Assembly (NCBI GenBank): GCA_000004985.1
Contig: GG738855.1
Strand: one strand, 5' to 3'
Length of the DNA: 64,000 nucleotides
From: Naegleria gruberi
Taxonomy: Eukaryota
In this document: positions 24,702-57,847 of the stretch, piece by piece
Layout: each line of letters starts with the position of its first letter
Position numbering within the stretch: position 1 is the stretch's first letter
The notes under the pieces: model-generated
What the model was told of the DNA's origin: nothing
Database searches by the model: none
Seen by the model: only the letters and a program-made list of their open reading frames with translations
Translations under genes and position numbers: made by a program

Positions 24702-26129
24702 ATGGAAAGCATCATGAACAAACAATTACTTGTCTCTGGATTTAATTTATTTCATCAGATTGACTTTTCAGATTCAACAAGAAGATTTGGCTTTGAGAAT
24801 TTCTCACCACTCAAAAAGAATGAATTGTCATCATCTCCCTCCATGGCAATGACACTCAATAATAGTCGTTCGAGTTTAATGTCAATGATGTATGGGGAGA
24901 ATATTGTAAATGCTTGTGGAAGTTTATTTTACAACATGTATTTGACTAATTTTGGAAGATTGTTTGTGTTGGGGAATTTTCATATAACTGATCATGAATA
25001 TGTAGAGTTTCAGAAAGAATCGAATAATGGCTTCTTTTTGGATGATAGTGCTAGAGATTTTGATAATAGAATGATTGTTGCTACCACTAGTTATAAGAGA
25101 TTTTACGAGTTGTCCAATCATTCATCACTAATTGATTCAAAGATAGTACAGATGGCATGTGGAAGAGATTTCTCACTCCTCCTCACACAAGAAGGCACAG
25201 TTCTTGCCTTTGGAAATAATATGAATAATCAATGTGCATTTCCACTGTCGAAAACATTAAGTGGAAGGGCCTATTTTCCAAATCAAATTCAATCTCCTGT
25301 TCAGGTACTCTCTAGAGCTGTTTCTGTTTCATGTGGACAGAAACATTCAATTGTATTGATGAATGATAGAAAGACACTTATTACTTTTGGAGATAATAGT
25401 TATGGACAGTTGGGAATTGGTCATTTGGATTCAGATCCAGACCGACATTTCATTTCGTTGGGAGAATATATGGATAGTGATGATTATATTGAAAAGATTG
25501 AATGTGGTGGATTTCATAACATTGTGCTAACAAGGAAAGGAACAGTCATTCTATTTGGTAGAGGTATAGAAGGTCAATTGGGATTGAAACATTCAAGTTC
25601 AATAAGTAAGCCAACCATTCTCAACACGTTCAGAGAAAACAATCTAAAGGTCAAATCTGTAGCTTGTGGAGAAATGCATACATTGTTTCTAACCTATTGT
25701 GGACAAGTGTTTGCCTGTGGAAGTAATTATAAGGGAGAGTTGGGACTTGGAAAGCACAACTCACTTGTTCAACATGTGACAGAGCCAACCAAGATTAATT
25801 TTGAAAAGAGCATAGAGACAATAAGCTGTGGATCGTGTCATTCATTAGCAGTGAGTCGAGATGGGAGCCATTTTGCATTTGGCCAGAATCAAGAAGGTCA
25901 ACTCGCCATGAAGGGAGGCAATAGATTTGAGTTTCTTCCCAAGAATATTTCCATTGAATCGACGGAACATCTTTCAACATCTTCCTTATTTTCTAATAGC
26001 TCTTGTTTTTGTTCATTCTTGGTTAGAGGAACAGCCAATACACGGTTGACAGAGTTTTTCACCAAGTTGACAACTTCACTTAATTCACACAAAGCCTTTG
26101 CAGATTGCACCTTTACTTTTGAAGAATAA
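24702..26129 (+). CDS. RCC1-repeat (beta-propeller) protein
   Basis: Multiple repeats: ACGRDFSLLLTQEGTVLAFGNN, SCGQKHSIVLMNDRKTLITFGDNSYGQLGIG, ECGGFHNIVLTRKGTVILFGRGIEGQLGL, ACGEMHTLFLTYCGQVFACGSNYKGELGLG, SCGSCHSLAVSRDGSHFAFGQNQEGQL. The in-frame ATG is at 24702; the track start upstream is a non-ATG codon. Confidence 0.7.
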   Translation: MESIMNKQLLVSGFNLFHQIDFSDSTRRFGFENFSPLKKNELSSSPSMAMTLNNSRSSLMSMMYGENIVNACGSLFYNMYLTNFGRLFVLGNFHITDHEYVEFQKESNNGFFLDDSARDFDNRMIVATTSYKRFYELSNHSSLIDSKIVQMACGRDFSLLLTQEGTVLAFGNNMNNQCAFPLSKTLSGRAYFPNQIQSPVQVLSRAVSVSCGQKHSIVLMNDRKTLITFGDNSYGQLGIGHLDSDPDRHFISLGEYMDSDDYIEKIECGGFHNIVLTRKGTVILFGRGIEGQLGLKHSSSISKPTILNTFRENNLKVKSVACGEMHTLFLTYCGQVFACGSNYKGELGLGKHNSLVQHVTEPTKINFEKSIETISCGSCHSLAVSRDGSHFAFGQNQEGQLAMKGGNRFEFLPKNISIESTEHLSTSSLFSNSSCFCSFLVRGTANTRLTEFFTKLTTSLNSHKAFADCTFTFEE

Positions 26130-41705: not shown

Positions 41706-44342
41706 ATGCAACGATACCAACAGAGGATGGACAACAGGCAACAACCTTCTAAGGGACAACAACATCGCCGAACTCTGTATGAGGATGATGAGGAAAACAG
41801 TAGTAGTGCTGATGAGGATATTTATGATCGTATTGCCATTTTGGCCAAAGAATATGGAGAGGAATATGAAGATGATGAGGAAGAAGAGAATTCCTCCCTT
41901 ACTATGAGACGAAATTATCCAAAACACAAGAACATACCCGAAGATACTCCAACTTCAGAAACCAATGACCCTTTCTCGGAAGATGATAAAGAAGATTCTG
42001 AAGACCAACAGGAAATTCAAATGAAAGTTCAAACCAGAAAGGCATTAAAAGACTCTAAAAAGTTTCTCCATACCACGACCAGAAAAATGGAAAACAAGAT
42101 GAATATTTCTCATAACCAATCTGTATTATCAAATGCTCTATCAAAAGAAAAGAATGATCTTTATGAAGCAACAATTAATCAAATTACTAGTAAGGATAAT
42201 TGGATTTTGAGTACGAGTTTTGATAAGTGTTTTGAAAAGATTAGGAAACAAGTCATGTCCGATGTTTACAGTAGAGAGAAATCAAAGAACAGACCTATGG
42301 AAACATATTCAAGGAAACCTGTTGTTAGAACATCCCAAACCTCAAAAGGAAAAACAATCGAAAAGAAACCTGTTATACAACTTGTCACCAATTATGATGA
42401 CAAGCCTCTTCCTACAAATAATAGAAGAAATTATGATGATATTCCAATAAGACAACCAAAGCAACAAGAGCAACAGCCAATAGAATCAAAAGAGCCTCCA
42501 AAAAAGAAGCAACAAGAGCAAGCTCCCATTCCAACAACTCAAAAAGACAAGTCGAGAAGACAATCAAAACAAAAACCTATTAGTATTGAGCCATATGAAG
42601 CAACTGAATCGGAATTGAATGCTTTGGAAGGATTTTTTGGAAGTAAGAAGACTTTGAAAATTGTTAGTGTTGGTTCAGTATTTGTAAGGGTACAAAAGTT
42701 TTGGAGAGCCAACAGAAAGTACAACCGAAATAAGGCTGTCCTTGATTTGAGAGAAATGTGGAGAACTACAGTTTTTGAAATGGAACGAGCACAATATGAC
42801 CATTTAGACACCTCAGAGTACAAGAGACAATTGAAATACTTTGCTGCCCAATTCTGTAAGGAAATGCATCCTCAAAAACCTTTTACACCAGGTGGAAAGA
42901 AACCATCTTCAAAAGATAAGCATACCTTCCTACATAGAAAGCAACAGCCTGCATTCCTTAAGAATGTTAACAAGAAGAGGTCCCATTCTAAATCTTCTAC
43001 ACCTGCCACCCCACCTGATACACCAACACAACTAACACCAACAAATATTTCTCCTCCATCAAATGCATTCTCCACCCCCCTTAGATCTCCACCAACAAGA
43101 CCAAAAGAGGAGATTGAATTTACTCCTCCAATAAGCCAATCTCCTCGAAAAGATCCACAACAAAAACGACCTGTAGCTTCTAACGACGAAACACAATTTA
43201 CAACCCCTAAAAAGTCCAACGGTATGAGACGATCCTTATCTAGCAGAGTGTTCAGGTTGGAAACAAGAGCCAACATTGAAAATACTCCCCTCTCTGAACA
43301 AGAGGCCACCCCATTCAAAGAAGGACCAGAGCTTAATTTGACTTCAAATAGTGATTCAACTTCCATTCAACCTCTTCAACAGACCCCAAATAATATGAAA
43401 TCTAGCCCTAGAAATAGCCCAAGGAAGATGACACAAAAGCAAGTCTCCTCCCCAAACACTACCCTCAATCAATCTGAAAATAATACTACCATCATGTCAG
43501 AAGAAAAACAACCAAACAATAGCGTTCTCTCAACCCCAACTAAAAGTGTAACAAATGAAATTTCCCAAAACACATCATTGAATAATATAACAGTTTCCCC
43601 AATATTGAGAAAAGCACCACCACCACCTATTGAGGTAAAATTTTTGAATAGCAATGATAATGAGCAAGAGGATCCATATGAAGAAGACGATGAAATGGAA
43701 GGTTATAATGACAATCATGAAAATGATTATTCTGAACATTCAGACTCATTAATAGAGGATAACCAATTTGATAATGAGGATTCTGAGTTGATTGAAGAAT
43801 TAGAGCAAAGTTCCACACCTGAAAGAAGTACTGAGACAAAAAAGGCGGAAGAAACATCAGCCTCCTTGAATCGAGCAGAAGAGAATACAAACAACAACTC
43901 TAGCTCCCTCAACAATAATATTGAAAGATTCAGTCTTACCTACAGAGAAGAGGAAGTGAAGAAAAAAGCCGAAGCTCTCTACAATAGGACAACTGGAACC
44001 CTTAGCGATTTACTAAGTCCCAGAGGTCGACAATCCACGGAAATTGTTCAACCTGTCCCATCTAAGCAGCCAGAGGAAGACCCAAAACAAAGTGAAGTAA
44101 AGAGTGTGGAAAGAATCCTGGTGGAGGAAACCAATTTGTCCATTTCCTCACATGGAAGTAGTGTAGAAAAGGTACCGAAACCACCTTCCCGAAAGCCACC
44201 ACAACCAACTCTTTCCTTAGAAGAATCTATGGAAAGAGATAGAACAAGATTTGCCGAGTTGGAAAACTTATGTTTTTCAGTAGATGAATCTTCTATTATT
44301 TATCAATTCGATAAGGAGTTTGTGTATAATGGATTACAATAG
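41706..44342 (+). CDS. large low-complexity Ser/Pro/Thr/Lys-rich protein
   Basis: Uninterrupted 878-aa ORF from the ATG at 41706. A possible IQ-like basic-hydrophobic segment (IVSVGSVFVRVQKFWRANRKY). Otherwise disordered composition. Confidence 0.45.
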   Translation: MQRYQQRMDNRQQPSKGQQHRRTLYEDDEENSSSADEDIYDRIAILAKEYGEEYEDDEEEENSSLTMRRNYPKHKNIPEDTPTSETNDPFSEDDKEDSEDQQEIQMKVQTRKALKDSKKFLHTTTRKMENKMNISHNQSVLSNALSKEKNDLYEATINQITSKDNWILSTSFDKCFEKIRKQVMSDVYSREKSKNRPMETYSRKPVVRTSQTSKGKTIEKKPVIQLVTNYDDKPLPTNNRRNYDDIPIRQPKQQEQQPIESKEPPKKKQQEQAPIPTTQKDKSRRQSKQKPISIEPYEATESELNALEGFFGSKKTLKIVSVGSVFVRVQKFWRANRKYNRNKAVLDLREMWRTTVFEMERAQYDHLDTSEYKRQLKYFAAQFCKEMHPQKPFTPGGKKPSSKDKHTFLHRKQQPAFLKNVNKKRSHSKSSTPATPPDTPTQLTPTNISPPSNAFSTPLRSPPTRPKEEIEFTPPISQSPRKDPQQKRPVASNDETQFTTPKKSNGMRRSLSSRVFRLETRANIENTPLSEQEATPFKEGPELNLTSNSDSTSIQPLQQTPNNMKSSPRNSPRKMTQKQVSSPNTTLNQSENNTTIMSEEKQPNNSVLSTPTKSVTNEISQNTSLNNITVSPILRKAPPPPIEVKFLNSNDNEQEDPYEEDDEMEGYNDNHENDYSEHSDSLIEDNQFDNEDSELIEELEQSSTPERSTETKKAEETSASLNRAEENTNNNSSSLNNNIERFSLTYREEEVKKKAEALYNRTTGTLSDLLSPRGRQSTEIVQPVPSKQPEEDPKQSEVKSVERILVEETNLSISSHGSSVEKVPKPPSRKPPQPTLSLEESMERDRTRFAELENLCFSVDESSIIYQFDKEFVYNGLQ

Positions 44343-45178: not shown

Positions 45179-48100
45179 ATGGTGCGTCAGATAAATAACT
45201 CTAAAGTATATACCAGCAATGATTCCTCCTCCTCTTCATTGTCGTCGTCATCATCATCTCTAAAGAAACTGCTCATTGCAATGTTTCAAATCCTTCTAGT
45301 ACTCTTTCTCATCACACAACACGAAGAAGTGAAAGGACAAATCTTTCCTCTGGTTGCCGAATCATCAATTTATAAGAATGCCATTATTATGCCTCCTCCT
45401 ACATCAAAGTTTGAACCTAAATTTGCTTTACAATGGGAAGAAATAACAAGTGCTTCAACAATTTCCACCAATTATTTAAATTTCCACTCCCAGTGTGCTC
45501 TAGGTACTGATAAAATTGTAAAAACATCAGATATTGACAATATCAATAATAATTTAAATAATGGGTTAAAGGTAATCAAATGGAAATTAACAGTTGGTGT
45601 GGGTAGCAATTTTCATAATGCATTGTTCGGATTTTCTGATGGTTCTGCAAATGGTTGGACTAAAATGAAGAATGTCATGTCAAACAATGCTGCCTATTCC
45701 TCTACAGTTAATGGTAAATGGAGTACTAGCAGTTCAACTACCAGTTTCAAGACAAATTTCTATTCCTCTCTTGTTTATCCACCACAGGTTTATAGATTTG
45801 ATAAGGGAGAAGTTAATACTAGACCAAATTTACAAGGATATGCTTCAATGTCATCACTCAACATGACTTTCTATGACATGTTCTCAGGATCAAAACTCTT
45901 GTATAACAATCAAGCTTTCCTATCTAGTAATAGTAAGAATGCGTTGCCATTAGTAATTTCGGGAGATCTTATTGATGCTATGTATAATTCTGATCCAAGT
46001 AATGCGACCATTGCTAAAATAGCTTCTATTCGTGAAGGTTTTAGAAATGAAGATGACCTTTCCTATCTATATGGACCTGATGGTACTAGTTCTATTGGTG
46101 GTTTTTTAAGAAGTCGTTCTCAATCTAATTGGACAGATATGTCTTCTACACCTTCTGATTTTGTTGTTCTATCCAGTTATGAGAATTATGTTTATGGTAC
46201 TGACTTTTATTTCACAACCACTAATTGCTTTAATGATTTGGTCAATAGCAATTCAACAAGTGGAAATGAATTATACTTTTTCGTTTCCCTTTTCAATTAT
46301 TACACACTTCTTAGTAGCAAGTTTAGTTCTAGAATTGACAATTCCTACAATAACAATGTCTTGAAGATGTTCCTTGCTTTTAACATGACACAATTATTGA
46401 CTACTCCAAATGGAAACAAAATGTTTCCAACCATGATGCAAAGTTCATCATCTGCTACTACTCCTTCATTCAAGGATTCTACAGCAAGATATTTCATTTC
46501 AGAATTCCATTACAATACTCTTACTACTTATCAACAATTGAGATATTTGAGAACTACTCACGTTTTCTTCTATGGTTTGATTATTATGACCATTCTCTTC
46601 ATGTTTAGAAAGCAACAACCTGTCAAGTCCAGATTTATGATCAACGCTTCTGTATGTGGTGTTGCTATTTTCTATGGTCTCTTTGGTATTATCATGGCTG
46701 CTGCAGTTCCAGATTATGACGGTATTGTAAGTGCTGCTGAAGTTTTATTCTACTTGGTCTTGGGTTTCTTATACGTCTTGTCTGCTGTTAGATATTTCTT
46801 CTCCAGAAATTTGTATAGAACTATGAGAATTAACTTCTCAAAGGAAAAGAAAAAGAAGGAAAAGAAAGATTCTGATACTTTTGAAGAAAAGCAATTGAAA
46901 TTGCTTAGATTGTTGGCTAATTTGGCTTCATGGAAAGTTTTCCTTGTTGGTGTTATTGCAGTAGTAGTTTTAATTGCTGGTCTTTCCATTTTCATTTTGG
47001 TTTCTATTTTGACTGGTGCTGCTGATAATTTCACTGTTTCAATTTCACAAGTCGCTACCTATGTCAAGTTGGCTGGTTTGTTGGGCTTGGTCTTTCCTAC
47101 TGCTATTATTTCTATCATTCTTGATGCTAGTATCAATTTTAAGAGAATCTTCAGAAAGGGTGGTCTTAAATGGTATCTCATTCAAGATGACCCTCTCTTA
47201 TTTAGAGCCGAATTTGCTGTCTTTATACCAACTGTTTGTTTGGGTGTTTTACTCTTTGGATTGGATCAATTTTACAATGGTTTACCTTGGTGGGATTTGG
47301 AGCAAAAAGCTGCCACTTATCTTGGTCACGGTTTAGTCTATACTGTATTTGAAGTTTCACTTCTCTTGTTAGGTTGTGGTGGTTTCATTGTCATTGTCCA
47401 AACAATTCAAACAGTTCGTATCGCCATCCGTAGAGGTTCACTTTTTGATAAGTCTGATACCGATGTCAGTAAATCCAAATCAGGAGGATTAGGTCTTGGT
47501 GAGAAGACTGAATTTGAACTCTTTATGGAAAGTGTTGAAGCAAGAGCCGTCTTGAAACAATATTGTGAAAGCGAATTTTCATTGGAAAATTACTTGCTTT
47601 TCGAATTGGTAGAAGATTTGCACAAACTTGTGCTCATTGAACAGACTCAAGGTGTTTTACAGGAACCTGTCGCCAAACCAAAACCAAAGCAATTATTAAC
47701 TGTTCAACATTCAAATTCTTTCAGAATGAGTGGTGATTTCAATGGGGCATCTCCTTCTGGTCTTCAACCTAACACTACCACAAATAGTGGAGCTCCAACA
47801 ACTATTACCCCAAATGGATTGTTAAATCCAGCTGATAACACTTCAATGACTACATCATTTACTTCATCTGGTTCAGAGGTTGTCTTTTTGAATAATGAAG
47901 ATCCAACTTCACCAACCAGTCCATCGACAATTTCAGAGCCATACTCTCCTTCTAAATTATCAACAAACGGACCAAACAAGGAAAAGGATAAGAATAAGGG
48001 ACCAGGTGATGTAACCCTCCAAATTGATAGAATGATTGTCAAGATTTTAAAGACATACTTGAGTGAAAACTCTGTTTTGGAAGTCAACTTACCAAACACA

Positions 48101-48382
48101 ACTCGTAAACAAGTTTTACATGCCTTCCGTAAACGTGTCTATCCAGATGACATGTCTAAGACAGGAAGTGCTTCTGGCTCAAAGAATTTTGATAAATCAC
48201 CAAGATCTCAAAGACCAGATACAGACAAGAAACCAGAATCAATTGACGTTGAAATTTTGGCAATTTTGAAACAAGATGTATGGTTGAATTTGAAAGATAC
48301 TTTTGGTAGATTGCAATTGACAAACGAATATCAATTGTTAAAGAAGAAACAAGCTTTGGAAAAGGAATTGAACGTTGTATAA
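45179..48382 (+). CDS. signal peptide + ~420-aa ectodomain + 7 TM helices + cytoplasmic RGS domain (7TM-RGS receptor-like protein)
   Basis: First ATG at 45179. Hydrophobic LLIAMFQILLVLFLI. Seven helices between FFYGLIIMTILFMF and GGFIVIVQTI. RGS box FELFMESVEARAVLKQYCESEFSLENYLLFELVEDLHKL...VLEVNLPNTTRKQVLHAF. C-terminal LKDTFGRLQLTNEY is shared with the paralog at 54818..57847. Confidence 0.65.
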   Translation: MVRQINNSKVYTSNDSSSSSLSSSSSSLKKLLIAMFQILLVLFLITQHEEVKGQIFPLVAESSIYKNAIIMPPPTSKFEPKFALQWEEITSASTISTNYLNFHSQCALGTDKIVKTSDIDNINNNLNNGLKVIKWKLTVGVGSNFHNALFGFSDGSANGWTKMKNVMSNNAAYSSTVNGKWSTSSSTTSFKTNFYSSLVYPPQVYRFDKGEVNTRPNLQGYASMSSLNMTFYDMFSGSKLLYNNQAFLSSNSKNALPLVISGDLIDAMYNSDPSNATIAKIASIREGFRNEDDLSYLYGPDGTSSIGGFLRSRSQSNWTDMSSTPSDFVVLSSYENYVYGTDFYFTTTNCFNDLVNSNSTSGNELYFFVSLFNYYTLLSSKFSSRIDNSYNNNVLKMFLAFNMTQLLTTPNGNKMFPTMMQSSSSATTPSFKDSTARYFISEFHYNTLTTYQQLRYLRTTHVFFYGLIIMTILFMFRKQQPVKSRFMINASVCGVAIFYGLFGIIMAAAVPDYDGIVSAAEVLFYLVLGFLYVLSAVRYFFSRNLYRTMRINFSKEKKKKEKKDSDTFEEKQLKLLRLLANLASWKVFLVGVIAVVVLIAGLSIFILVSILTGAADNFTVSISQVATYVKLAGLLGLVFPTAIISIILDASINFKRIFRKGGLKWYLIQDDPLLFRAEFAVFIPTVCLGVLLFGLDQFYNGLPWWDLEQKAATYLGHGLVYTVFEVSLLLLGCGGFIVIVQTIQTVRIAIRRGSLFDKSDTDVSKSKSGGLGLGEKTEFELFMESVEARAVLKQYCESEFSLENYLLFELVEDLHKLVLIEQTQGVLQEPVAKPKPKQLLTVQHSNSFRMSGDFNGASPSGLQPNTTTNSGAPTTITPNGLLNPADNTSMTTSFTSSGSEVVFLNNEDPTSPTSPSTISEPYSPSKLSTNGPNKEKDKNKGPGDVTLQIDRMIVKILKTYLSENSVLEVNLPNTTRKQVLHAFRKRVYPDDMSKTGSASGSKNFDKSPRSQRPDTDKKPESIDVEILAILKQDVWLNLKDTFGRLQLTNEYQLLKKKQALEKELNVV

Positions 48383-48510
48383 TTTTTTGCAAATTTCATA
48401 AAGTTTCATTTTGTTAAATTTGTGTCTTAATAGTAATTAATGAAACGAATTTGGCAATTAAATAATAAATTTATTTTCAAATTACCAATTTTAAGAAATC
48501 TTTTAAAAAA

Positions 48511-49825
48511 TTATTTACAAGAATTCTTAATATAAGGTCCAGAATATTCAATAGTTGGTTGTCTCAACATTTGAGAAGTGGATCCAACAACATATAAATA
48601 ATATTCAATAAAACATTGAATCATGCTCAATGCACCACAATCCAATGGATCAACCTTGATTGAAATTTCATATTGAACTGGTCCCATACTCAATTGATCC
48701 TTTGTAACAAGGAATTGAACCCAAGGAGTGAAAGAAATTGATTTACCAGTCTCTGCAACAATATGCTTGGTCTTTTTCTCTCTAACTTGCAAGATGAAAT
48801 TCTTGGCATAGATGGCAGGAGAGGCCAAAATTGTGACATATTGAGGTTCAGCAACATTGACAGTATAAACATCAGCTTGCAATGAACCAATACTAGCAAC
48901 CATGAAACTAGTATCCAATTTACCAGCAGCAGATAATTCCATAGCTCTTGACTTGGAATAATCTTCAAAAAGTGGCCATTGAACAGTTGTTTTAGAATCC
49001 CAAGCAACTTTGAGTGAAGTTTGAATATTACCCTTGGAATCAACATAATCTCCATTATCATTCTTTTGATAATTATGAATACCCATCATACCAAGAGGAC
49101 CCAAAGGACCTAATGGACCCAAAGGACTGTAATTGTACAATTATAATTATATTGTAAAAATTTCAATATAGTTACAATATCAACTTACCCCAAAGGACCC
49201 AAAACAGACCAAACACCCAAACCTTGCATGTGCTTGGTAAGATCATTAATCAAAGGCATTACCTTATAGTAAGCATCACCCAAAGGTCCAGCATTTGAAA
49301 GTGGATTTTGAACATTGTCAGTCATTAAAAATTTAAAACTATCCAAACTTGAACTACCCATGATTTGTTTAGTAAAATCTTGCATAATTTTAACAACACC
49401 GTTAGGACTAGGAATCTCGTGTGAAAGTGGTCCCAAAGAAGCCAATGGTCTATCAAAATTAATTTTAAATTTAATTTTTAAAAATGGTCAATTCACACAC
49501 ATTTCAATAATTTAATTCCACCCGATTGTAATCCACAAAGATAAACTTACCCAGATGCACCCAAAGGACCAGCCCATCCCAAACAACTCATAGCATTAAT
49601 ATATAAATCACATGTTCCAGTAGGTCCTGGACAAACCTTTGGTGCAGGTGAAACAAAACTTCCATAAAAAGTTCCAGAAAGTGAGGCAATAGAATCGGAA
49701 GAAGTGTAACGGTAACATGTTTTAGATGCGGACAAGGGGTTTCTTGATCTTGCTTGATGACTTGGAAGTGTCAAGCAAGCTATCAATAAGAAAACTGCTA
49801 AAATGTAGACAGTGGCAGTTGACAT
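48511..49825 (-). CDS. secreted protein with PLG/GPLG repeats and a ~190-aa C-terminal globular domain; 3 exons (49825..49551, 49449..49189, 49126..48511)
   Basis: Signal peptide MSTATVYILAVFLLIACLTLPS. Exon 1 ends ...WAGPLGASG|G and exon 2 ends ...SVLGPLG|G; both use GTAAGT donors and phase-2 introns that split Gly codons. Exon 3 starts PLGPLGPLGPLGMMGIH. The reading frame is maintained across both junctions. Confidence 0.55.
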
Positions 49826-50096
49826 TTTTTTTTAAGATGATGTTTCAGGTTTGACATGAAGTAGCCACCTTCATTTGGAGCGATTTCCATTACAGAAATT
49901 GGTTTTTTCGCGTTTTTTCAAAGTGTGTCACCAACAACAAAGCGAATAACCCTTTCGAACAGTAAATACGAATCATTCTGTTGTAAAGTGAATTTGATTC
50001 CTCTGATGTGCACTCTCAACTGTTACCCCTGTTGTATCGAATATTAATATTGGACTATACATATTGTTTAATTATTTGTAAAGGAGTATTAAAAAA

Positions 50097-53050
50097 ATGC
50101 GAAATCTTCTCTTCATTCCATTAGCATCAAAACAAGGCACAGTTAGTGATAGTGATCAGAAGAACAATGAATTCATCATTCAATCATGTGAATGGTCGCT
50201 CTCCCTTGTAAATTATCGGAACGGAAGAGATTTGATGAAAAATCATATTGATCAAGAATTAATTCCCGAATTTACAAATGATGAAACTCTTGAGGTAAGC
50301 TTAATAAAATTTAAGTATATATGTAATGATGGTTGTATGGTGATGATGATGATGGTGGTTAGAAAAGTCAATATGAAAATATTAAATTTAATCATGATGG
50401 AATTTCAAATACGGTTCATATGATTTTGTATGATGATCATCATAACCATGATGTTGATCATCGGATTGGAAATCCATATTATAGATTTGAAGAGTTGAAA
50501 CAATTGTGGATTGGAAATTCCGATTGGAAGATGGAATGTAAGATTAAAGTAAATAGTAAGAATCAGAGAGCAATGTTTTTGGTATTTGAAGGTGTGGACA
50601 CAGTCGCAGATATCAAGATAAAAAGAAATGATAATGGACAAGTAGTTGTATTGGAAAAACAGGTAGATAATATGTTTCAATACTATGCATTGGATGTTTC
50701 TAAATGCTTGAGTGGATGTGATGAGTTTTCCATTGAGGTTTTATTGAAATCAGCTCTACAGGAATGCAGGGAACGATTGCAAAGACATTATGAAGAGGAA
50801 CAGTATGAAATTCCTTGCCCTTCCTACACTCGAGATTTCCACACAAGAGGAAGGAATTTTCTGAGAAAGGAGGGATGTTCATTTGGATGGGATTGGGCTC
50901 CTTGTTTTGCCACTTCTGGCCTTCACAGACCTTGTTACTTGGTTGTTTCATCCAATGAAGTGGAATATTCCTCTTTCATTAAGGATGTGGCTGTATTTCA
51001 GAGGGATTTTAAATTTAATAGAGTTGGATCTGTGACTTGTGAATCTCTGAATGCAAATGTAAAAGTTTACTTGCACGGAAATTATTTGAATTATCAGGAT
51101 TTGAGAAAGGATATCAATTCCATTCAATGGAAATTGCATAAGGAAGGTTTCGAATTAACTAATACAGTAACTGAATGGATGATTTCAAAAGATGAAGAGT
51201 TGGAAAATACTTTTATTATAACCTTTGCAATTGAATCTTTGAAAGATGTTGAATTGTGGTATCCTAATGGTTATGGATCTCAAGCACTGTACAATTTTGA
51301 AATAATAATTGATGGACCAAATGCTCAATCCAAATCCACCAATCTCGGATTTAGAAAAGTAGAGTTGGATACTTCTAAAGATGAATTTGGAGAGAAATTC
51401 CAATTCAAAGTAAATGAAATTCCCATCTATGCCAAGGGAAGTAACTGGATTCCTACCGACTGTTTCTCTTCACGTTCCATGAAAGGAAAAGATCACCTGG
51501 AATTCCTCTTGAAGAGTGCACACGATTGCCACATGAATTGTATGAGAGTTTGGGGAGGTGGTCAATATGAATCAGAGCATTTCTATAACTTGTGCGATAA
51601 GTATGGTATTCTGTTGTGGCATGACTTGATGTTTGCATGTTCTCTGTATCCATCTTCTCCTGAGTTTCTGGAGACTTGTCGTGTAGAGGCAGTTCAACAA
51701 TTGAGAAGATTACAGCATCATCCATGCATTGCTCTGTATGCAGGAAATAACGAGAATGAGGAAGCTCTCCTTTCTTGGCCAGAATGTATTGAATCTCCTC
51801 ACAAACAACGACTCTTTGTCGATTATCATAAGCTCTATTATGATACTCTGCATAGAGTAGTATCGAAGGAGGATAACTCGAGACCTTATTGGCCTAGCAG
51901 CCCATCGAATGGTATCATGAAGTATGGCAATCCTCAAGATCTCACTAGAGGTGACGCTCATTATTGGAGGGTGTGGCACGGAGGAAAATCATTTGATAAT
52001 TATCTCACTGTAACTCCAAGATTTAGTTCAGAATTTGGATTTCAATCATTGCCAAGTTATGAATCTTTAATTCCATTCATTAATGATCCCAACTCGCTAG
52101 ATCAATCACAAGATGCTAACATCTCCTCTCCAGTGATGGAATTCAGACAGAGAAGCTATATGGTAGGAAATAAGTGTATTTTGGAACATGTATCTAGAGA
52201 ATTTAGATTCCCAAAGAGCTTCAAAGAACTGGTGTACATTTCTCAAATCTTACAAGGTCTCTCTATCAAGACAGCATGTGAACACTGGAGAAGACAAAGC
52301 AAGATTTGTTCTGGTGTCTTGTATTGGCAATTGAATGATGCTTGGGTTGGAAACTCTTGGTCAAGTTTGGAGTGGAACGGAAAGTGGAAACTTTTACAAT
52401 ATTATGCAAGAGATTTTCTAGCACCTTCACTATTGTCTTGTGTGGAAAATAAGGAGAATGCTTGTCTGGATATTTGGTTCACTACAGATTCATTACAATC
52501 CCTGAAATTGAGCAAGTTAACAATTGAATTGATTTCCTTTGGGAATGGTACACAATTACTCAAAAAGGTAATTGATATTGAGAAGCAAGTTGCAGAAGCA
52601 TCTAGCCAAATAATTTATTCGCTAGACATTAAGGAAGTTGAAAAGAGTAGAACTAAAGGATTTTTGAAATTCAAATTGGATGTAACAGGTCAAGAATCAA
52701 TTGCCAATTACCATTTCCTGACAGAGTTGAAAAAGGCCACTCTCAACTATAGTCCTGTGCGTGTTGCATCTCTTGTGGAGGACGATACCAATACCTTTCT
52801 GGAAATGGAATTGGAATGTGGATCTACTGCACCATCGTTATTTACCTACATTGTTATTGAGAATGACAGTCAAGATACCACCTCTAAAACCTCTCTCGAA
52901 TTTGATTTGGATCATTTGAGTGATAATGGTTTCCATCTTATGCCAGGAGAAGTGAAGAAGATTACCATTCACAAGAGACCTAGTTGGAGAGGCACCTCGT
53001 CTCAATACGCACCACTCATTCATATTATGAATTTGAGAGATAGTTATTAA
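50097..53050 (+). CDS. beta-mannosidase (glycoside hydrolase family 2), with at least one intron near the 5' end (exon 1 ~50097..50294; exon 2 from ~50363)
   Basis: RIGNPYYRFEELKQLWIGNSDWKME parallels human MANBA [38 protein letters not shown] resembles the GH2 sugar-binding domain. Catalytic-region motifs follow (WHDLMFA, YAGNNENE, SEFGFQS). Donor GTAAGC at 50295. The acceptor choice is uncertain (ttag at 50362 keeps the frame through NTVHMILYDD). Confidence 0.75.
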
Positions 53051-53101
53051 CAGACTGTCATGTATGTACATTACAAATAAATTTAAATGAATAAATTAAA
53101 T

Positions 53102-54376
53102 TTATTCCTTTTCAGCAGCTGCTTTTTGTTGAGATTCAAACCAAATATCTGTTAAATTTTGTGAAACAAATTCAAAAACTGAAAACATGATACCAGTTGA
53201 TAGTGTCACCCACATAACTCTAGGAGTGATACCTTTGAAAAATCCTCTCCAACCATCATCTTGTTTAATCTTTCTGAACATGGCAACAAAGCCACCCTTA
53301 AATGTTGTCGAGGTTTGTAATCTAGTCTTGATGACATCAATTGGATTACTCAGTGAGGCAGCCATAGCACCTGCAGTACCACCAACAACTATCGACTCTG
53401 AAAAGGTTAATTTCTGAGCAGATTTTAAGGATTCTTGTGGGTCTTTAAGTGTTGAATTTTTCAAATCATCTCTGTATTGATCCATCTTTCTATTTAAAAT
53501 TGAATTTTTCAATACTTCATAAATTAAAAATTGAGTCATACTGTATGGAATATCTCTGACCATTGTTGCAGAATAACCTCTAAATAATCCACGAATTCCC
53601 TCACTCCTAGCAACTTGATAAAAAGTTTTAAGTGTAGATTGTGAATATTGTGCAGATGAAAGTGAATTTGTTTGAAATCTACATTTTATCAATTCAGATG
53701 GCACAAAAACCAAAGATCCCATAAACTCTGCTGAACTACCTGCCAACATGTACGCAAAATTTTTATGTTCTCTCAAGAATTCTGAATTCTCCAAAAGTAA
53801 TCTCTTCATTGATTCATAAGTTCCAAAATAGATAGCTCCTGCAGGTAAACTCCCATAAAGCGTTGGTACCCATCCTCTAAAAAGTCCTCTCCTTCCCTCA
53901 GTCTTTGCAATTGTAATAAAAGCATCCAAAGTATTCTTATAAACAAATCTATTAGAAGTTGATAAATCTCCAACAAATTGTTGTCTAGTTTTCACTGTAT
54001 CCAATGGTTGTAACAATGTATCTGAAACTATAGATGCAATAGATCCAGAAATAAAATCAATAGCACGTAATCTCTCTCTCTTGGTTGTTGATTGTAAATT
54101 ACTTAATTCCTTATCATCTTGTTCATCTAAATCCGATTGTTCTTGTTGTTGAATCATGTAGGGATGAGGTGGAAGAAATGCATGATGTTGAGCATGATGA
54201 TGATGTGGATTATTTGAATTATTAGGATTATTAGGATTTGATAATAATGAATTATTATTAATATTATTTGTAATATTCATATTATTAATATTATTAATAT
54301 TATTATTGGTAGTGGTGGAGGAGGAGGTATTAGGAGAAGAGGAAGGAGAAGATAATTGGGAATTTGTGGTGGTCAT
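53102..54376 (-). CDS. mitochondrial carrier family protein with an Asn/Ser/His-rich N-terminal extension
   Basis: Three Mito_carr repeats with PLDTVKTRQQ, PSELIKCRFQ and PIDVIKTRLQ signatures. The track start is GTG; the first ATG is at 54376. Confidence 0.8.
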   Translation of the reverse strand: MTTTNSQLSSPSSSPNTSSSTTTNNNINNINNMNITNNINNNSLLSNPNNPNNSNNPHHHHAQHHAFLPPHPYMIQQQEQSDLDEQDDKELSNLQSTTKRERLRAIDFISGSIASIVSDTLLQPLDTVKTRQQFVGDLSTSNRFVYKNTLDAFITIAKTEGRRGLFRGWVPTLYGSLPAGAIYFGTYESMKRLLLENSEFLREHKNFAYMLAGSSAEFMGSLVFVPSELIKCRFQTNSLSSAQYSQSTLKTFYQVARSEGIRGLFRGYSATMVRDIPYSMTQFLIYEVLKNSILNRKMDQYRDDLKNSTLKDPQESLKSAQKLTFSESIVVGGTAGAMAASLSNPIDVIKTRLQTSTTFKGGFVAMFRKIKQDDGWRGFFKGITPRVMWVTLSTGIMFSVFEFVSQNLTDIWFESQQKAAAEKE

Positions 54377-54817
54377 TGGAGAATTAGGCACTAAAGATGA
54401 TAATTTAGAATTTAATATAATATTTAAATTAAATGATGATGTAATAGATAGTATAATAATATTATATCAATGATTATTATAAATTATATATTGTTATTAT
54501 TATATGAAACTCTATTCGGGACGACGGCTTTTACTTTCGGAGGAGTTTTTTCCTCTTTTTTTGGATTCAATGAAAATAACGACTCGAAATTCACACACTC
54601 TCTAGAAAGAGATTGGAATTGATTGGGTTAGAGGGAGAAACAGAAGGTGAATAGATAATGGAAGAAATTAATAATGAATGTATGAATATATATTGAATGA
54701 ATGTGTTAAACTTTATTGTCGGATGGAGTTTCATAGAGGGATGATGATGAGGAATCAACAATTCCCATGGCAGTAGCATCTTCTTGAGTTGAATTGGAGT
54801 TTTGATGATGATTTTCA

Positions 54818-57800
54818 TCAAGTATTTGAATGCTCTGGGAAGAACCAATGTTGTTGGTAGTGTAGTGGCTGTGTGGTGGTGATATTGGAATTGTTTGTTG
54901 TTGGAATGGTATTAAGCTCAGTGTCCTTATCATTATCTGCTGCTGGAGTGACAACAATGATTGGAGTGCCACCTGGTGAGGTGTTATGGAGTGGTGTTGG
55001 AGTGGTTGGAGTTTGAGAGGGTTGGACTGTGTGTCCATTGATGTGACCATGACCATTTAAGGTTGTAGATGGTGGAATAGTTGCTAAATTACTATTCGAG
55101 GATTTGGTAAGGGCCTTTGCTTTTTGAATGGCCTGAAGTGAAACTGAATTCTTCTTAACAATCTCAAACCATTCCTTATATTCGGCAGTGAGCTGGAGAC
55201 GACGGAAGGTATCTCTCAAATTCTTCACAACCTCTGAAATGACAATATCCAAATCATTGACAAAATATTCGCTCTTGAGATAGTCATCAGTGAAGAAATC
55301 CTTGGCAGCCCACTTGTTGAAAATAGTCTTAGAAAAACTTGACAAATTGACAGTCATTGGAGCATTATCAGGAATGTATGTGTTGTAAATGTTTTCTCTG
55401 AGTTCTGTTGTGGCCTTGGCAATTTCTTCCTCTGTTAAATTTTGTTTCAATAGTGGACGATAGAATGGGCGATCTGAGGATGGTGATTTACCAGTTATGG
55501 ATCTAGGACGAGCTACAGCCATGAATAATTGAGTATAGACCTTTTCCATATCACTGATAAATGCAAGATTTTCAATGGAGAATTCAGTTTTAGCGTATTG
55601 TCTAATGAGTTCAAATCCCTTCTCATCAATGAATAATCTGGCCAATTCATCTCCCAACAAGTCAAGATATGGAGAGTTTCTAATTGTTCTAAATTTGATA
55701 ATTTCACCTGCATCAAGTTCAATACTTGTTTCTTTAAGGTTATCATCATTGTGATCGGCATATCTATCGAACAAAAATCCAATTCCTTCAGCACACTGAT
55801 TACTCAAACGAATTCTCTCATAGAGTGTCATGAGACAAATGAATCCACCACCAGAGGCCATCAGTTCCAAAAAGATGGCGATCAATTCAAGTGGCAATGC
55901 AACAAATGTGGCCAAAATGACAGAAGGAGCATAGGTATTGGAGAGGAGAACGACCATATCGTCAGTTCTGGACATGGCAATGGATCTAACCACACCCATA
56001 GAAACATAAAAGACAATTGAAATGATGTGAACAAGCATTTCCAATCTATAGTAGAGTCTGTCATTTCTCACAAAGTATGCCTTCAATTTACAGCCTAATA
56101 TGAGTTTCTTATTGGCCACTATATCAATACTAAAGGCAACAATTACCAAGAAGACTGCAAATGCAACCAATAAGCCACCAATTGCTTGAATGGCAATCAA
56201 AACATTCGGAGCTGGAACAGTAAAAAGGAGAGGAATAATGATCGAGTAGATAATAATCAAGACAATAGCCATAAAGGTTACTGTGAAAATCTTGACCTTC
56301 TTGGATCTAGCCCAACGGAATGTTAACTGCTTAGCTTTTTCTGAAGTATTGAGTGAGCTGGCATCGGATCCCTTTCTCTCTCCAATTGGTTTGTCATTAG
56401 ACCCTGAACTTGAAGGAGAGTTATTGAGTTGAGCAAGGGATGAAGATCCACTTGATTGATTCTTCCTCTCAAATGATTCACGTTTCAGTTTGTTGTACAT
56501 TTCAGCATAGACCTTTCTCTTATAAAAGAAGAAGAGAGTATTCATAAAATAGATCAGATAAGATCCACTGAGTAAACCAAATGTTATGAATGTAAATATC
56601 ATGAGCAAGTATTCTTCTCCCCAAAACGATTGCAACAAAACTCTACAAAAATTAATAACAACCTGGAAGAGTACAAGGTATGGCAAATATCCTCTCGAAG
56701 CTCTAGGTTCAGTTTTCCTGAAATAAATTAAAAAGAAGAGAATAATCAATCCAGTGATTCCATTCACAACTACAACCAATGTAGAGATGGCATAGTTGGC
56801 ACTGACAACTCTTCTCTGCATGGTCAGTGTTGGATCTTCAAGATCAGAATTTAGGGAAACAGTATCTTCAAAAAATACATTGCTATCTCCAAAGATTACA
56901 TTCGTTGGAAGTGGAAATTGAACTTGAGAATTTTTAGAAGCATAAACCTTGAATTCGAATTGAGTTCCCAAATTCGAAACCAATAATTCACTTAGCGTTG
57001 GAACACTTTCAACCCTATCACCCTCATCCATTGGATGTTCCAATGCAGAACGAAGTAAATCCTCCAATTTCGCCTGCACAGTAAACTCAGTACCAAAGAA
57101 TGCCTTTCTTATTCTCACCGGTTTAATATAGACATAGTCAGTGAGTGGATTTTTCATTTGTGGTTCATTAATAATAATACCATCATTCATTCCAATATTT
57201 GTTGTGGAATTGATAACCAATTGCTGACCTACGAGGGCAATTCTTCTGACCTCTCCTGCCTCAACATTGACTGTACTACTATCTTCAGCAATACCTCTAA
57301 TACCTCTACTATTATTATTAGTATTATTATCATTATTAGATGTATTATTCATGGTGAGAGAAGTAGAAGTAGATGATTCTGTCGTATTAAAATCAATATC
57401 TGTAAATAATTCAAAATAGAGTGGAGCCAATCGAGGTTGATAAGCCATTGCCCACAAATTAGTTTCATAAAAAGTCGAATTATTAATGATATTGATGGAC
57501 AATCCAAAGAGTGTTTGTCTCAGAATGTTGGCTGTAACTGTAATCATTGTAACTTCAATGCTGGTTGGACAATCAACGATGGTACCTGCTGGAGTGGTCC
57601 TTTTTTGCATATCCGTGAGTGAACCTAATAGTTTCCAATTTCCGTAAACATTTGGAAGAAACTTGTATTCGTGGCTTGAGGTGAGTTTGTTGTATGTTTC
57701 TATTGGCATTCGACAATTACTCGCAAAATTGGTCAGTGGAGAAGCCTGTATTATTATTGTTTGATGCCATACTATTAAAAGAAGAAGAAGAAATAATGAT

Positions 57801-57847
57801 GATGAAAATGTATTCGAAATGTTTCGAACAAAATTATGCCTGCTCAT
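54818..57847 (-). CDS. signal peptide + ~330-aa ectodomain + 7 TM helices + cytoplasmic RGS domain (7TM-RGS receptor-like protein), paralog of 45179..48382
   Basis: ATG at 57847. Signal FSSSLFLLLLLIVWHQTIIIQA. Seven helices from YAISTLVVVVNGITGLIILFFLIYF to GGGFICLMTL. RGS box FELIRQYAKTEFSIENLAFISDMEKVY...TVNLSSFSKTIFNKWAAKDFF. Shared tail motif LRDTFRRLQLTAEY. The 3' end may contain an unmodelled intron (an overlapping ORF in another frame at 54706..55056). Confidence 0.6.
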   Translation of the reverse strand: MSRHNFVRNISNTFSSSLFLLLLLIVWHQTIIIQASPLTNFASNCRMPIETYNKLTSSHEYKFLPNVYGNWKLLGSLTDMQKRTTPAGTIVDCPTSIEVTMITVTANILRQTLFGLSINIINNSTFYETNLWAMAYQPRLAPLYFELFTDIDFNTTESSTSTSLTMNNTSNNDNNTNNNSRGIRGIAEDSSTVNVEAGEVRRIALVGQQLVINSTTNIGMNDGIIINEPQMKNPLTDYVYIKPVRIRKAFFGTEFTVQAKLEDLLRSALEHPMDEGDRVESVPTLSELLVSNLGTQFEFKVYASKNSQVQFPLPTNVIFGDSNVFFEDTVSLNSDLEDPTLTMQRRVVSANYAISTLVVVVNGITGLIILFFLIYFRKTEPRASRGYLPYLVLFQVVINFCRVLLQSFWGEEYLLMIFTFITFGLLSGSYLIYFMNTLFFFYKRKVYAEMYNKLKRESFERKNQSSGSSSLAQLNNSPSSSGSNDKPIGERKGSDASSLNTSEKAKQLTFRWARSKKVKIFTVTFMAIVLIIIYSIIIPLLFTVPAPNVLIAIQAIGGLLVAFAVFLVIVAFSIDIVANKKLILGCKLKAYFVRNDRLYYRLEMLVHIISIVFYVSMGVVRSIAMSRTDDMVVLLSNTYAPSVILATFVALPLELIAIFLELMASGGGFICLMTLYERIRLSNQCAEGIGFLFDRYADHNDDNLKETSIELDAGEIIKFRTIRNSPYLDLLGDELARLFIDEKGFELIRQYAKTEFSIENLAFISDMEKVYTQLFMAVARPRSITGKSPSSDRPFYRPLLKQNLTEEEIAKATTELRENIYNTYIPDNAPMTVNLSSFSKTIFNKWAAKDFFTDDYLKSEYFVNDLDIVISEVVKNLRDTFRRLQLTAEYKEWFEIVKKNSVSLQAIQKAKALTKSSNSNLATIPPSTTLNGHGHINGHTVQPSQTPTTPTPLHNTSPGGTPIIVVTPAADNDKDTELNTIPTTNNSNITTTQPLHYQQHWFFPEHSNT

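What the first reader, a model, noticed from the sequence alone, without database searches (positions are those of the whole stretch)
45179..57847. Two divergent paralogs with signal peptide + large ectodomain + 7TM + RGS domain, 6.4 kb apart
Both proteins (45179..48382 plus, 54818..57847 minus) carry a cleavable or anchor N-terminal hydrophobic segment. Each then has a 330-420-aa ectodomain with little similarity to the other, seven predicted TM helices, and a clear RGS box (EFS[IL]EN core). They also share a C-terminal motif, L(K/R)DTF(G/R)RLQLT.EY. A GPCR-like 7TM fused to its own G-alpha GAP domain is the architecture of plant AtRGS1 and has been found only sporadically in protists. A clustered pair with divergent ectodomains suggests lineage-specific ligand-sensing receptors that self-terminate G-protein signalling. 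The intervening genes (PLG-repeat secreted protein, beta-mannosidase, mitochondrial carrier) are unrelated, so this is a local duplication and not an operon-like unit.
Basis: partly seen in the sequence, partly recalled or inferred. Interest (0 to 1): 0.6.

Follow-up and report, generated by a model that had tools for sequence, protein, structure and literature searches.

The report
Two Naegleria 7TM-RGS receptor genes
The window, from the amoeba Naegleria gruberi, holds two real genes for membrane receptors that carry their own G-protein "off-switch" (RGS) domain, but they are uncharacterised members of a large receptor family already described in Naegleria, and the data do not support the idea that one arose as a nearby copy of the other.

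Summary

Three parts of the interpretation need correcting.
- **Family already known.** N. fowleri has 28 7TM-RGS proteins, and the RGS domains of three of them showed GAP activity on Galpha subunits (PMC9283941).
- **The "shared C-terminal motif".** It appears to be the last helices of the same RGS box, carrying the RGS4 Asp163/Arg167 equivalents. Disordered inserts split the box, which explains why raw Pfam scores fall below threshold.
- **"Local duplication".** This is not supported. A and B are separate ancient orthogroups. They are no closer to each other than to other family members (A+B clade in 2% of bootstraps), and their ectodomains are unrelated.

N. fowleri keeps the A ... beta-mannosidase ... 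B arrangement in the same convergent orientation. It was not seen within 10 kb in N. lovaniensis or Willaertia.

Most likely function, by inference: receptor-GAPs acting on Galpha subunits. Interest is low to moderate.

The parts
45179..48382 (+). Gene A: A-type 7TM-RGS protein, 1067 aa (NAEGRDRAFT_78910)
   Evidence: ORF; 100% identity and coverage to P0005; orthologs in N. fowleri FDP41_008317 (48% identity over 1067 aa), Willaertia magna and an unnamed ENA contig.
45260..45316 (+). A: N-terminal hydrophobic segment (aa 28-46), a signal peptide or signal anchor after a long Ser-rich n-region
   Evidence: Kyte-Doolittle peak 2.19. The long n-region is also present in the N. fowleri ortholog P0007. 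Cleavage was not tested.
45338..46546 (+). A: ectodomain (aa ~54-456), A-type-specific, fold unknown
   Evidence: Conserved only in A-type orthologs (phmmer); 42% identity to N. fowleri; no Pfam hit; AF2 pLDDT 30-50, so no fold call; 5 N-x-S/T sequons.
46547..47458 (+). A: seven-helix GPCR-fold core plus post-TM7 helix (aa ~457-760)
   Evidence: AF2 pLDDT 85-95; Foldseek PDB hits are all GPCRs; 68% identity to N. fowleri; family motifs FRKQQPVKSR (ICL1) and DDPLLFRAE (before TM6).
47501..47674 (+). A: RGS helices alpha1-alpha4 (aa ~775-832) with the ESEFSLEN motif
   Evidence: Pfam RGS match aa 783-817; AF2 helices 778-827; E/S/E/N invariant or nearly so in the family.
47675..47986 (+). A: disordered low-complexity insert inside the RGS box (aa ~833-936)
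   Evidence: AF2 pLDDT ~30; 28% identity to N. fowleri. Removing it and the second insert lifts the Pfam RGS score above the cut-off.
47987..48148 (+). A: RGS helices alpha5-alpha6 (aa ~937-990) with LEVNL (RGS4 Asn128 equivalent)
   Evidence: AF2 helices 942-961 and 973-987; alignment to RGS3/RGS2/RGS18 'EVNL'; Asn nearly invariant in the family.
48236..48379 (+).
   Evidence: AF2 helices 1024-1045 and 1049-1066; N, D and R of NL.DTF.R invariant or nearly so across 54-55 family members.
54818..57847 (-). Gene B: B-type 7TM-RGS protein, 1009 aa; the public model (930 aa) lacks the first 79 aa
   Evidence: ORF; P0001 100% identity, 92% coverage. The N-terminus, including the signal peptide, aligns with ortholog P0003. 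Orthologs: N. fowleri FDP41_008323 and N. lovaniensis C9374_010641.
57743..57847 (-). B: signal peptide (aa 1-35; possible cleavage after IIQA, judged by eye)
   Evidence: Hydropathy peak aa 15-33; a similar N-terminal hydrophobic segment in P0003. No signal-peptide predictor was available.
56795..57742 (-). B: ectodomain (aa ~36-351), B-type-specific, fold unknown
   Evidence: Conserved only in B-type proteins; hhalign against the A ectodomain gives probability 0.1%; no Pfam hit; 8 N-x-S/T sequons.
55748..56794 (-). B: seven-helix GPCR-fold core with long K/R-rich ICL2 and post-TM7 helix (aa ~352-700)
55148..55672 (-). B: RGS box (aa ~726-900) with a ~26-aa insert after alpha4; contains TEFSIEN, TVNL and LRDTFRRLQLTAEY
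   Evidence: Pfam RGS 22.6 bits raw and 30.4 bits with the insert removed; Foldseek RGS16/17/8 TM-score 0.64-0.72; PDB profile hits.
54821..55147 (-). B: Ser/Thr/Pro/Asn-rich C-terminal tail (aa 901-1009)
   Evidence: Read from the sequence; poorly conserved, 27% identity. A role as a phosphorylation or endocytosis tail like that of AtRGS1 is speculation.
50420..53050 (+). Intervening GH2 beta-mannosidase gene (context; also lies between the two orthologs in N. fowleri)
   Evidence: Pfam Glyco_hydro_2_N2 1.5e-29; 48% identity to the N. fowleri gene lying between FDP41_008317 and FDP41_008323.
53102..54391 (-). Intervening mitochondrial carrier gene (context; no match in the N. fowleri loci fetched)
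   Evidence: Pfam Mito_carr 3.4e-74; no tblastn match in the N. fowleri loci.

Best explanation
The two genes are uncharacterised members of the heterolobosean 7TM-RGS receptor family. That family was described in Naegleria fowleri, and its architecture resembles plant AtRGS1.

Each protein is inserted with its N-terminal ectodomain outside the cell. It has a GPCR-fold seven-helix core and a cytoplasmic RGS domain held at the membrane by a long post-TM7 helix. The RGS box is one domain interrupted by disordered inserts, and it keeps all the residues that RGS4 uses to contact Galpha.

Inferred mechanism: the RGS domain accelerates GTP hydrolysis on one or more of Naegleria's many Galpha subunits, some of which are self-activating. 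Ligand or contact at the subfamily-specific ectodomain or 7TM core would then modulate that GAP activity, or the receptor's location, and so set the level of Galpha-GTP.

A and B belong to two different, ancient subfamilies with unrelated ectodomains. N. fowleri shares their convergent arrangement around a beta-mannosidase gene, so their linkage is old. It is not a recent local duplication.

Shown here: architecture, fold, topology, conservation, family membership, synteny. Inferred: GAP activity, ligand regulation, plasma-membrane location.
For: Organism and identity.

N-out/C-in topology: positive-inside counts of 25 vs 0 and 20 vs 1, plus N-terminal signal segments.

RGS domain: PDB profile hits; insert-excised Pfam scores of 26.6 and 30.4 against a cut-off of 23.9; 47 of 55 relatives match PF00615. 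Family-wide invariance of E..S.EN, EVN and NL.DTF.R corresponds, by my mapping, to RGS4 Glu83/Ser85/Glu87/Asn88, Asn128 and Asp163/Arg167. The RGS4 numbering comes from my knowledge of the RGS4-Gi-alpha1 structure literature.

Family: an exhaustive profile search found 315 relatives. 75 of the 159 sequences I held carry the whole 7TM+RGS core. All named ones are Naegleria, Willaertia or Acrasis. Nf 7TM RGS1 of Bosch et al. is a member.

Experimental precedent: the RGS domains of Nf 7TM RGS2-4 showed GAP activity on Nf Galpha subunits (PMC9283941).

Orthogroups: A and B clades each at 100% bootstrap.

Synteny with N. fowleri.
Against: No experiment exists on these two proteins or their direct N. 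fowleri orthologs; neither ortholog was among the four RGS domains tested.

Raw Pfam RGS scores are below the gathering threshold.

Foldseek E-values are weak, 0.05-1.

No fold or ligand could be assigned to either ectodomain.

In A, Gly replaces the RGS4 Arg166 equivalent (DTFGR).

Large inserts lie in the RGS box, and their effect on Galpha binding is unknown.

Signal-peptide cleavage and surface localisation were not tested.
Confidence: 0.85

Rival explanations
1. One reading: A and B are products of a local (tandem) duplication whose ectodomains then diverged.
For: They belong to the same family, lie 6.4 kb apart and are the only two members in the 64-kb window. They share 'RLQLT' after DTF.R, which the few other members I inspected by eye lack. 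P0009 (A-type) is the best non-B hit of the B-type HMM. A very old tandem duplication, now saturated by divergence, cannot be excluded.
Against: An A+B clade appears in only 2% of NJ bootstraps, and the A-B distance (2.2) equals the distance to any other member. B-types rank 3rd to 25th among non-A hits of the A-type HMM, and the other A-types rank well below P0009 for the B-type HMM, all within the same 40-70-bit range. The ectodomains are unrelated. Both subfamilies already exist as separate orthogroups in N. fowleri and N. lovaniensis, and A-type also in Willaertia. The Willaertia A-type gene has no B-type neighbour within 10 kb. With about 28 or more family genes in a ~41-Mb genome, my rough estimate is that a chance pair within 10 kb somewhere in the genome has a probability of about 0.2-0.6.
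Confidence: 0.15
2. The proteins are conventional GPCRs (ligand-activated exchange factors for Galpha) whose built-in RGS domain merely shortens their own signal ('self-terminating receptor'). In this reading they are not receptor-GAPs for self-activating Galpha.
For: The core has a true GPCR fold. Naegleria has both slow-exchanging and self-activating Galpha subunits, and both kinds interact with 7TM RGS proteins (PMC9283941).
Against: By inspection of the sequences, I saw no DRY or NPxxY-type class A activation motifs. The conserved cytoplasmic motifs (FR..QP.KSR, DPL.FR.E) are family-specific. No 7TM-RGS protein has been shown to have GEF activity in the papers I read (PMC3865004, PMC9283941).
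Confidence: 0.12
3. The RGS boxes are degenerate, non-catalytic scaffolding (RH-like) domains, as in GRKs or axin. The proteins would then signal or adhere independently of Galpha GAP activity.
For: Raw Pfam scores are below threshold. There are large inserts inside the box. The literature notes that some RGS domains have lost GAP activity (PMC3971589).
Against: All canonical Galpha-contact positions (E..S.EN, EVN, D..R) are conserved in both proteins and nearly invariant across the family. The inserts fall between helices and are predicted to be disordered. The helical segments are the best-conserved parts of the proteins, at 66-79% identity between N. gruberi and N. fowleri for A.
Confidence: 0.08

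Closest known systems
Naegleria fowleri 7TM RGS proteins (28 genes; Nf 7TM RGS1-4 studied by Bosch, Jeck & Siderovski 2022, PMC9283941)
   Same: Same genus and the same profile family. Nf 7TM RGS1 (FDP41_005437) carries the whole 7TM+RGS core found by the profile built from A and B. The architecture is the same: large variable ectodomain, 7TM, C-terminal RGS. Direct orthologs of A and B exist in N. fowleri (FDP41_008317, FDP41_008323).
   Different: Per Bosch et al., the studied proteins are longer (about 1200-2500 aa) with EGF-like, lectin-like and GPS modules outside. A and B have neither GPS nor EGF; they have two different subfamily-specific ectodomains with no Pfam match. Neither A, B nor their orthologs were tested biochemically.
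Arabidopsis AtRGS1 (plant 7TM-RGS receptor-GAP)
   Same: 7TM core followed by a cytoplasmic RGS box, with a proposed role as a membrane GAP that holds self-activating Galpha in the GDP state (PMC3865004, PMC9283941).
   Different: From my knowledge, AtRGS1 is about 459 aa with only a short extracellular N-terminus. A and B have 320-400-aa ectodomains, a long K/R-rich ICL2 and inserts inside the RGS box. I could not test homology of the 7TM cores here (no AtRGS1 sequence in hand, afdb50 unavailable), so the architecture may be convergent.
R4-type RGS domains (RGS4, RGS16, RGS17, RGS8, RGS3; Pfam PF00615)
   Same: Helical RGS fold (Foldseek TM-score 0.64-0.72), collinear sequence matches and conserved Galpha-contact residues.
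   Different: About 16-19% identity. The box is split by a 26-aa (B) or 104-aa (A) disordered insert after alpha4, and A has a second 29-aa insert before alpha7. It is tethered to a 7TM core.
GPCR superfamily 7TM fold (classes A, B, C, F, T)
   Different: 6-15% identity and no preference for any class: class C mGlu2/GPR156 score 16.0-16.4 and class A 15-16. No Pfam 7tm family matches; 1 of 55 members has a weak 7tm_3 hit. The family has its own cytoplasmic signature motifs.
Adhesion GPCRs (GAIN/GPS + 7TM)
   Same: Large extracellular region in front of a 7TM core. Some members of the same Naegleria family do carry a GPS motif (P0012/P0156, P0036).
   Different: A and B have no GPS/GAIN match and only two Cys in each ectodomain.

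Membership tests
RGS domain (Pfam PF00615) | Sequence score above the Pfam gathering threshold (23.9 bits) | tested here: inconclusive
   Native sequences: A 17.8, B 22.6-23.6 bits, below the cut-off. With the predicted disordered inserts excised: A 26.6, B 30.4 bits, above it. 47 of 55 homologs match, best 8.4e-17.
RGS domain (Pfam PF00615) | All-helical RGS fold | tested here: met
   The AF2 B-core model has pLDDT ~90 over the box. Foldseek hits RGS16, RGS17 and RGS8 with TM-score 0.64-0.72 normalised to the target and probability 1.00. The helices of A are modelled at pLDDT 85-95.
RGS domain (Pfam PF00615) | Conserved Galpha-contact residues (RGS4 Ser85/Glu87/Asn88, Asn128, Asp163/Arg167) | tested here: met
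   EFS(I/L)EN, (T/E)VNL and DTF(R/G)R are present in both proteins. E, S, E, N, N, D and R are invariant or at least 90% conserved in 54-55 family members. EFSxEN and EVNL align to RGS3/RGS2/RGS18. RGS4 numbering is from my own knowledge.
RGS domain (Pfam PF00615) | GTPase-accelerating activity on Galpha | not testable with these tools
   Reported only for other Naegleria family members (Nf 7TM RGS2-4; PMC9283941).
7TM-RGS receptor architecture (AtRGS1-like) | Seven TM helices with N-terminus outside and a C-terminal RGS box in the cytoplasm | tested here: met
   Seven helices in both AF2 models; GPCR fold; positive-inside counts of 25 vs 0 and 20 vs 1; N-terminal signal segment.
7TM-RGS receptor architecture (AtRGS1-like) | Common descent of the 7TM core with AtRGS1 | not tested
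   No AtRGS1 sequence or model was available; afdb50 library was unavailable.
Heterolobosean (Naegleria) 7TM RGS family | Full-length homology of the 7TM+RGS core to family members, including an experimentally studied one | tested here: met
   The profile search recovered 315 relatives. 75 of the 159 sequences held cover the whole core, including P0122 = Nf 7TM RGS1. Shared motifs: FR..QP.KSR, DPL.FR.E, GG in TM7.
Heterolobosean (Naegleria) 7TM RGS family | Orthologs in other Naegleria species | tested here: met
   A: FDP41_008317 (48% identity over 1067 aa). B: FDP41_008323 and C9374_010641 (36-41%)..
Canonical GPCR (G-protein-activating receptor) | GPCR 7TM fold | tested here: met
Canonical GPCR (G-protein-activating receptor) | Membership of a defined class by sequence (Pfam 7tm_1/2/3, Frizzled, Dicty_CAR and so on) | tested here: not met
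   No 7tm Pfam family matches A or B. One of 55 relatives has a weak 7tm_3 hit at 1.3e-4.
Canonical GPCR (G-protein-activating receptor) | Ligand-dependent guanine-nucleotide exchange activity | not testable with these tools
   Needs biochemistry.
Adhesion GPCR | GAIN domain with GPS autoproteolysis motif next to TM1 | tested here: not met
   No GPS hit in A or B at E<=1. Other family members do have one (P0012 sequence).

The most novel reading that the evidence does not exclude
The family's seven-helix core has no Pfam model and carries its own invariant cytoplasmic motifs (FR..QP.KSR in ICL1, DPL.FR.E before TM6). It could be a distinct, Heterolobosea-centred GPCR class whose cytoplasmic face is built to present the tethered RGS box to Galpha.

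N. gruberi and N. fowleri also share the convergent A -> beta-mannosidase <- B arrangement. That arrangement might mark a functionally coupled glycan- or sugar-sensing module, echoing AtRGS1's role in sugar sensing.
Probability: 0.06. Interest if true: 0.55.

Novelty: new member of a known kind. Interest (0 to 1): 0.25.

Why it matters
The main result is a clarification.

What the re-analysis adds:
- **Two conserved subfamilies.** Each has its own ectodomain of unknown fold. Both have orthologs in the pathogen N. fowleri (FDP41_008317 and FDP41_008323), which could be candidate surface sensors.
- **Split RGS boxes.** Disordered inserts split the RGS boxes of these proteins, so standard Pfam thresholds miss or under-score them. 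Counts of 7TM-RGS genes based on gathering thresholds may therefore be too low.
- **Gene-model correction.** The public N. gruberi model for B lacks its signal peptide.
- **Signature motifs.** The family-wide cytoplasmic motifs could guide mutagenesis on how a 7TM core controls a tethered GAP.

Tried and rejected
1. Single-sequence database searches found only orthologs for B and only A itself for A. The word-index candidate step is probably swamped by low-complexity words.

2. The third homologous-protein search, with a gap-trimmed 26-sequence family alignment meant to count N. gruberi paralogs and map taxonomic spread, returned one protein. This was a dead end, so the number of N. gruberi paralogs remains unknown here.

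3. Ectodomains. There are no Pfam hits and no similarity between A and B by profile comparison. Homologs occur only within each orthogroup. The AF2 model of the A ectodomain is low-confidence (pLDDT 30-50), so I attempted no fold assignment.

4. An afdb50 fold search, to compare with AtRGS1 and other AFDB 7TM-RGS proteins, was unavailable.

5. A GPS/adhesion-GPCR reading for A and B is rejected, since there is no GPS match.

6. Synteny beyond N. fowleri. N. lovaniensis (+-10 kb around the B-type gene) has Cas1_AcylT as in N. fowleri, but no GH2 or A-type gene. Willaertia (+-10 kb around the A-type gene) has none of the neighbours. A deep conserved 'module' is therefore not supported.

7. The NJ tree and clade-specific HMMs were meant to test sisterhood of A and B. 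Distances are saturated (~2.2), so the result is 'no support', not firm rejection.

8. I tried to map the N. fowleri orthologs onto Nf 7TM RGS1-4 through the primer-encoded peptides. Only RGS1 (= P0122) could be identified. A C-terminal VVYGI match to P0033 belongs to N. lovaniensis, so it is at most an ortholog of Nf 7TM RGS4. The A and B orthologs are not among the four.

Full report
**What is there.** The window is Naegleria gruberi. ORF A (45179-48382, +, 1067 aa) is identical over its full length to NAEGRDRAFT_78910, which UniProt labels 'RGS domain-containing protein'. ORF B (54818-57847, -, 1009 aa) is identical to an N. gruberi 'predicted protein' of 930 aa that starts at an internal Met. 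The extra 79 N-terminal residues of the ORF include a hydrophobic signal segment and align with the N-terminus of an environmental ortholog, P0003. The public model therefore appears truncated. The genes are convergent and 6436 bp apart. Between them lie a small ORF with a PLG repeat, a GH2 beta-mannosidase and a mitochondrial carrier. A family HMM finds no third member in the 64-kb window.

**Architecture.** Hydropathy gives one N-terminal hydrophobic segment and seven later ones in each protein. An AlphaFold2 model of B residues 340-900, built with a 55-sequence family alignment, is confident (mean pLDDT 84.1, pTM 0.80). It shows seven membrane helices, a long post-TM7 helix, a short disordered linker and a helical C-terminal domain. 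A full-length model of A gives the same core at pLDDT 85-95.

Lys+Arg counts are 25 (B) and 20 (A) in the three loops predicted to be cytoplasmic, against 0 and 1 in the outer loops. Together with the N-terminal signal, this fixes the ectodomain outside and the RGS box inside.

**The RGS box.** Raw Pfam scores are below the gathering threshold: A 17.8, B 22.6, cut-off 23.9. The reason is structural. The box is interrupted after helix alpha4 by an insert of about 26 aa in B and about 104 aa in A. A has a second insert of about 29 aa before alpha7. The long insert in A is modelled as disordered (pLDDT ~30). The inserts are among the least conserved parts of the proteins (28% identity for the long one).

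With the inserts removed, both boxes pass the threshold (26.6 and 30.4 bits). A profile of the box hits RGS domains in 24 of 27 PDB matches, in two collinear pieces that cover EFSxEN and EVNL. In addition, 47 of 55 relatives match PF00615, down to 8.4e-17.

In family alignments, the residues E..S.EN, the Asn of EVN, and N, D and R of NL.DTF.R are invariant or at least 90% conserved. By my mapping to RGS4 (numbering from my knowledge of the RGS4-Gi-alpha1 structure literature), these are Glu83/Ser85/Glu87/Asn88, Asn128 and Asp163/Arg167, the Galpha-contact set.

**Family.** An exhaustive HMMER search with a profile of the 7TM+RGS core found 315 representatives at E<=1e-3. Of the 159 sequences I held, 75 carry the complete core. 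Every one that has a name comes from Naegleria gruberi, N. fowleri, N. lovaniensis, Willaertia magna or Acrasis kona; the rest come from metagenomes or read assemblies.

N-terminal regions vary widely. They range from almost nothing (430-570-aa proteins) to more than 2000 aa, with GPS, EGF-like or alpha/beta-hydrolase modules. The 7TM core matches no Pfam family. It has its own signature: FR..QP.KSR right after TM1, DPL.FR.E before TM6, and GG in TM7.

**Literature.** De Mendoza et al. counted 229 RGS proteins in N. gruberi and noted 7TM-RGS architectures in many bikonts (PMC3971589). Bosch, Jeck and Siderovski reported 28 7TM RGS proteins in N. fowleri. They reported that the isolated RGS domains of Nf 7TM RGS2-4 act as GAPs for several Nf Galpha subunits, including self-activating ones, through a canonical interface, although they regarded one RGS3/Galpha3 result as a probable fluorescence artefact (PMC9283941). 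The peptides encoded by their cloning primers identify Nf 7TM RGS1 as P0122/FDP41_005437, a full-core member of the family I recovered. The kind of protein is therefore already known in this genus. The orthologs of A and B were not among the four tested.

**Relationship between A and B.** They align over the 7TM core and RGS box at about 23% identity. Their ectodomains show no similarity (hhalign probability 0.1%), and each ectodomain is found only in its own orthogroup.
- A-type: N. fowleri FDP41_008317 (48% identity overall; 42% ectodomain, 68% 7TM, 66-79% RGS helices), Willaertia magna ABK040_006883 and an unnamed ENA protein.
- B-type: N. fowleri FDP41_008323 and a second paralog FDP41_005195, N. 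lovaniensis C9374_010641 and an unnamed ENA protein.

In a neighbour-joining tree of 66 cores (407 columns), both groups have 100% bootstrap support, but A+B form a clade in only 2% of replicates. The A-B distance equals the distance to any other member. HMMs built from one group do not rank the other group above unrelated members. 'Local duplication' is thus unsupported. Because distances are saturated, a very old tandem origin cannot be excluded. My rough estimate is that, with about 28 or more such genes in a ~41-Mb genome, one chance pair within 10 kb somewhere in the genome is not unlikely.

**Synteny.** In N. fowleri the gene order is:
- the ortholog of the 878-aa upstream ORF,
- the A-type gene (+),
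- three other genes,
- the GH2 beta-mannosidase (+),
- a small gene,
- the B-type gene (-).

The two receptor genes are about 12.5 kb apart and have the same convergent orientation as in the window. The linkage therefore predates the N. gruberi/N. fowleri split. In N. lovaniensis no A-type or GH2 gene lies within 10 kb of the B-type gene. In Willaertia no neighbour is shared. I read this as ordinary, decaying synteny rather than a functional cluster.

**Mechanism.** This step is inferred. The proteins most likely act as receptor-GAPs. The membrane-tethered RGS box accelerates GTP hydrolysis on Naegleria Galpha subunits, and the ectodomain/7TM part couples an extracellular cue to that activity or to receptor trafficking, as proposed for AtRGS1 and for the Naegleria family (PMC3865004, PMC9283941). 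A conventional exchange-factor GPCR with a built-in terminator, or a non-catalytic RGS scaffold, are less likely alternatives. Only biochemistry can exclude them.

**Verdict.** The rarity claim, the separate C-terminal motif and the local-duplication inference are not. These are two new, uncharacterised members (two subfamilies) of a known receptor family, and interest is low to moderate.

Noticed in passing
window 54818-57847 (-): The public N. gruberi gene model for B (P0001, 930 aa, 'predicted protein', no Pfam annotation) starts at internal Met80 and lacks the signal peptide and the first conserved part of the ectodomain. The 1009-aa ORF start at 57847 is supported by alignment to ortholog P0003.
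   Followed up: yes
window 4219-11127 (-): A 2302-aa ORF with GHKL ATPase (HATPase_c_3), SMCHD1 S5-like and SMC-hinge domains, i.e. an SMCHD1-like protein in a heterolobosean.
   Followed up: no
window 19929-22337 (-): Argonaute/Piwi-family ORF (PAZ + Piwi domains).
   Followed up: no
window 31080-34019 (+) and 24609-26129 (+): Two RCC1-repeat proteins. The larger (979 aa) combines an RCC1-like propeller with C-terminal EGF-like domains, an unusual pairing that suggests a secreted or surface protein.
   Followed up: no
window 41706-44342 (+): An 878-aa low-complexity ORF with no Pfam match lies directly upstream of A. It has a 31%-identical counterpart in the same position upstream of the N. 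fowleri A-type gene.
   Followed up: partly
window 48511-49140 (-) and 49140-50420: A small ORF with an N-terminal PLGPLGPLGPLG repeat and no Pfam match; its true start and exon structure are unclear. The N. gruberi GH2 ORF (876 aa) is shorter than the N. fowleri gene product (1050 aa), so an upstream exon may lie in 49.2-50.4 kb.
   Followed up: no
L002 1327-3618 (N. fowleri) and FDP41_008291 on the same contig: In N. fowleri another RGS protein (763 aa, PF00615) lies ~6.4 kb from the B-type gene, and a further 1782-aa family member (FDP41_008291) is ~26 locus tags from the A-type gene. RGS genes may be locally enriched on this chromosome segment.
   Followed up: no
family members P0026, P0047, P0075 (metagenome-derived): Some family members carry an N-terminal alpha/beta-hydrolase domain in front of the 7TM-RGS core (source names 'pimeloyl-ACP methyl ester carboxylesterase'; Pfam Abhydrolase_1 in 4 of 55). 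An enzyme-7TM-RGS fusion did not come up in the passages I read of the four papers I consulted.
   Followed up: partly
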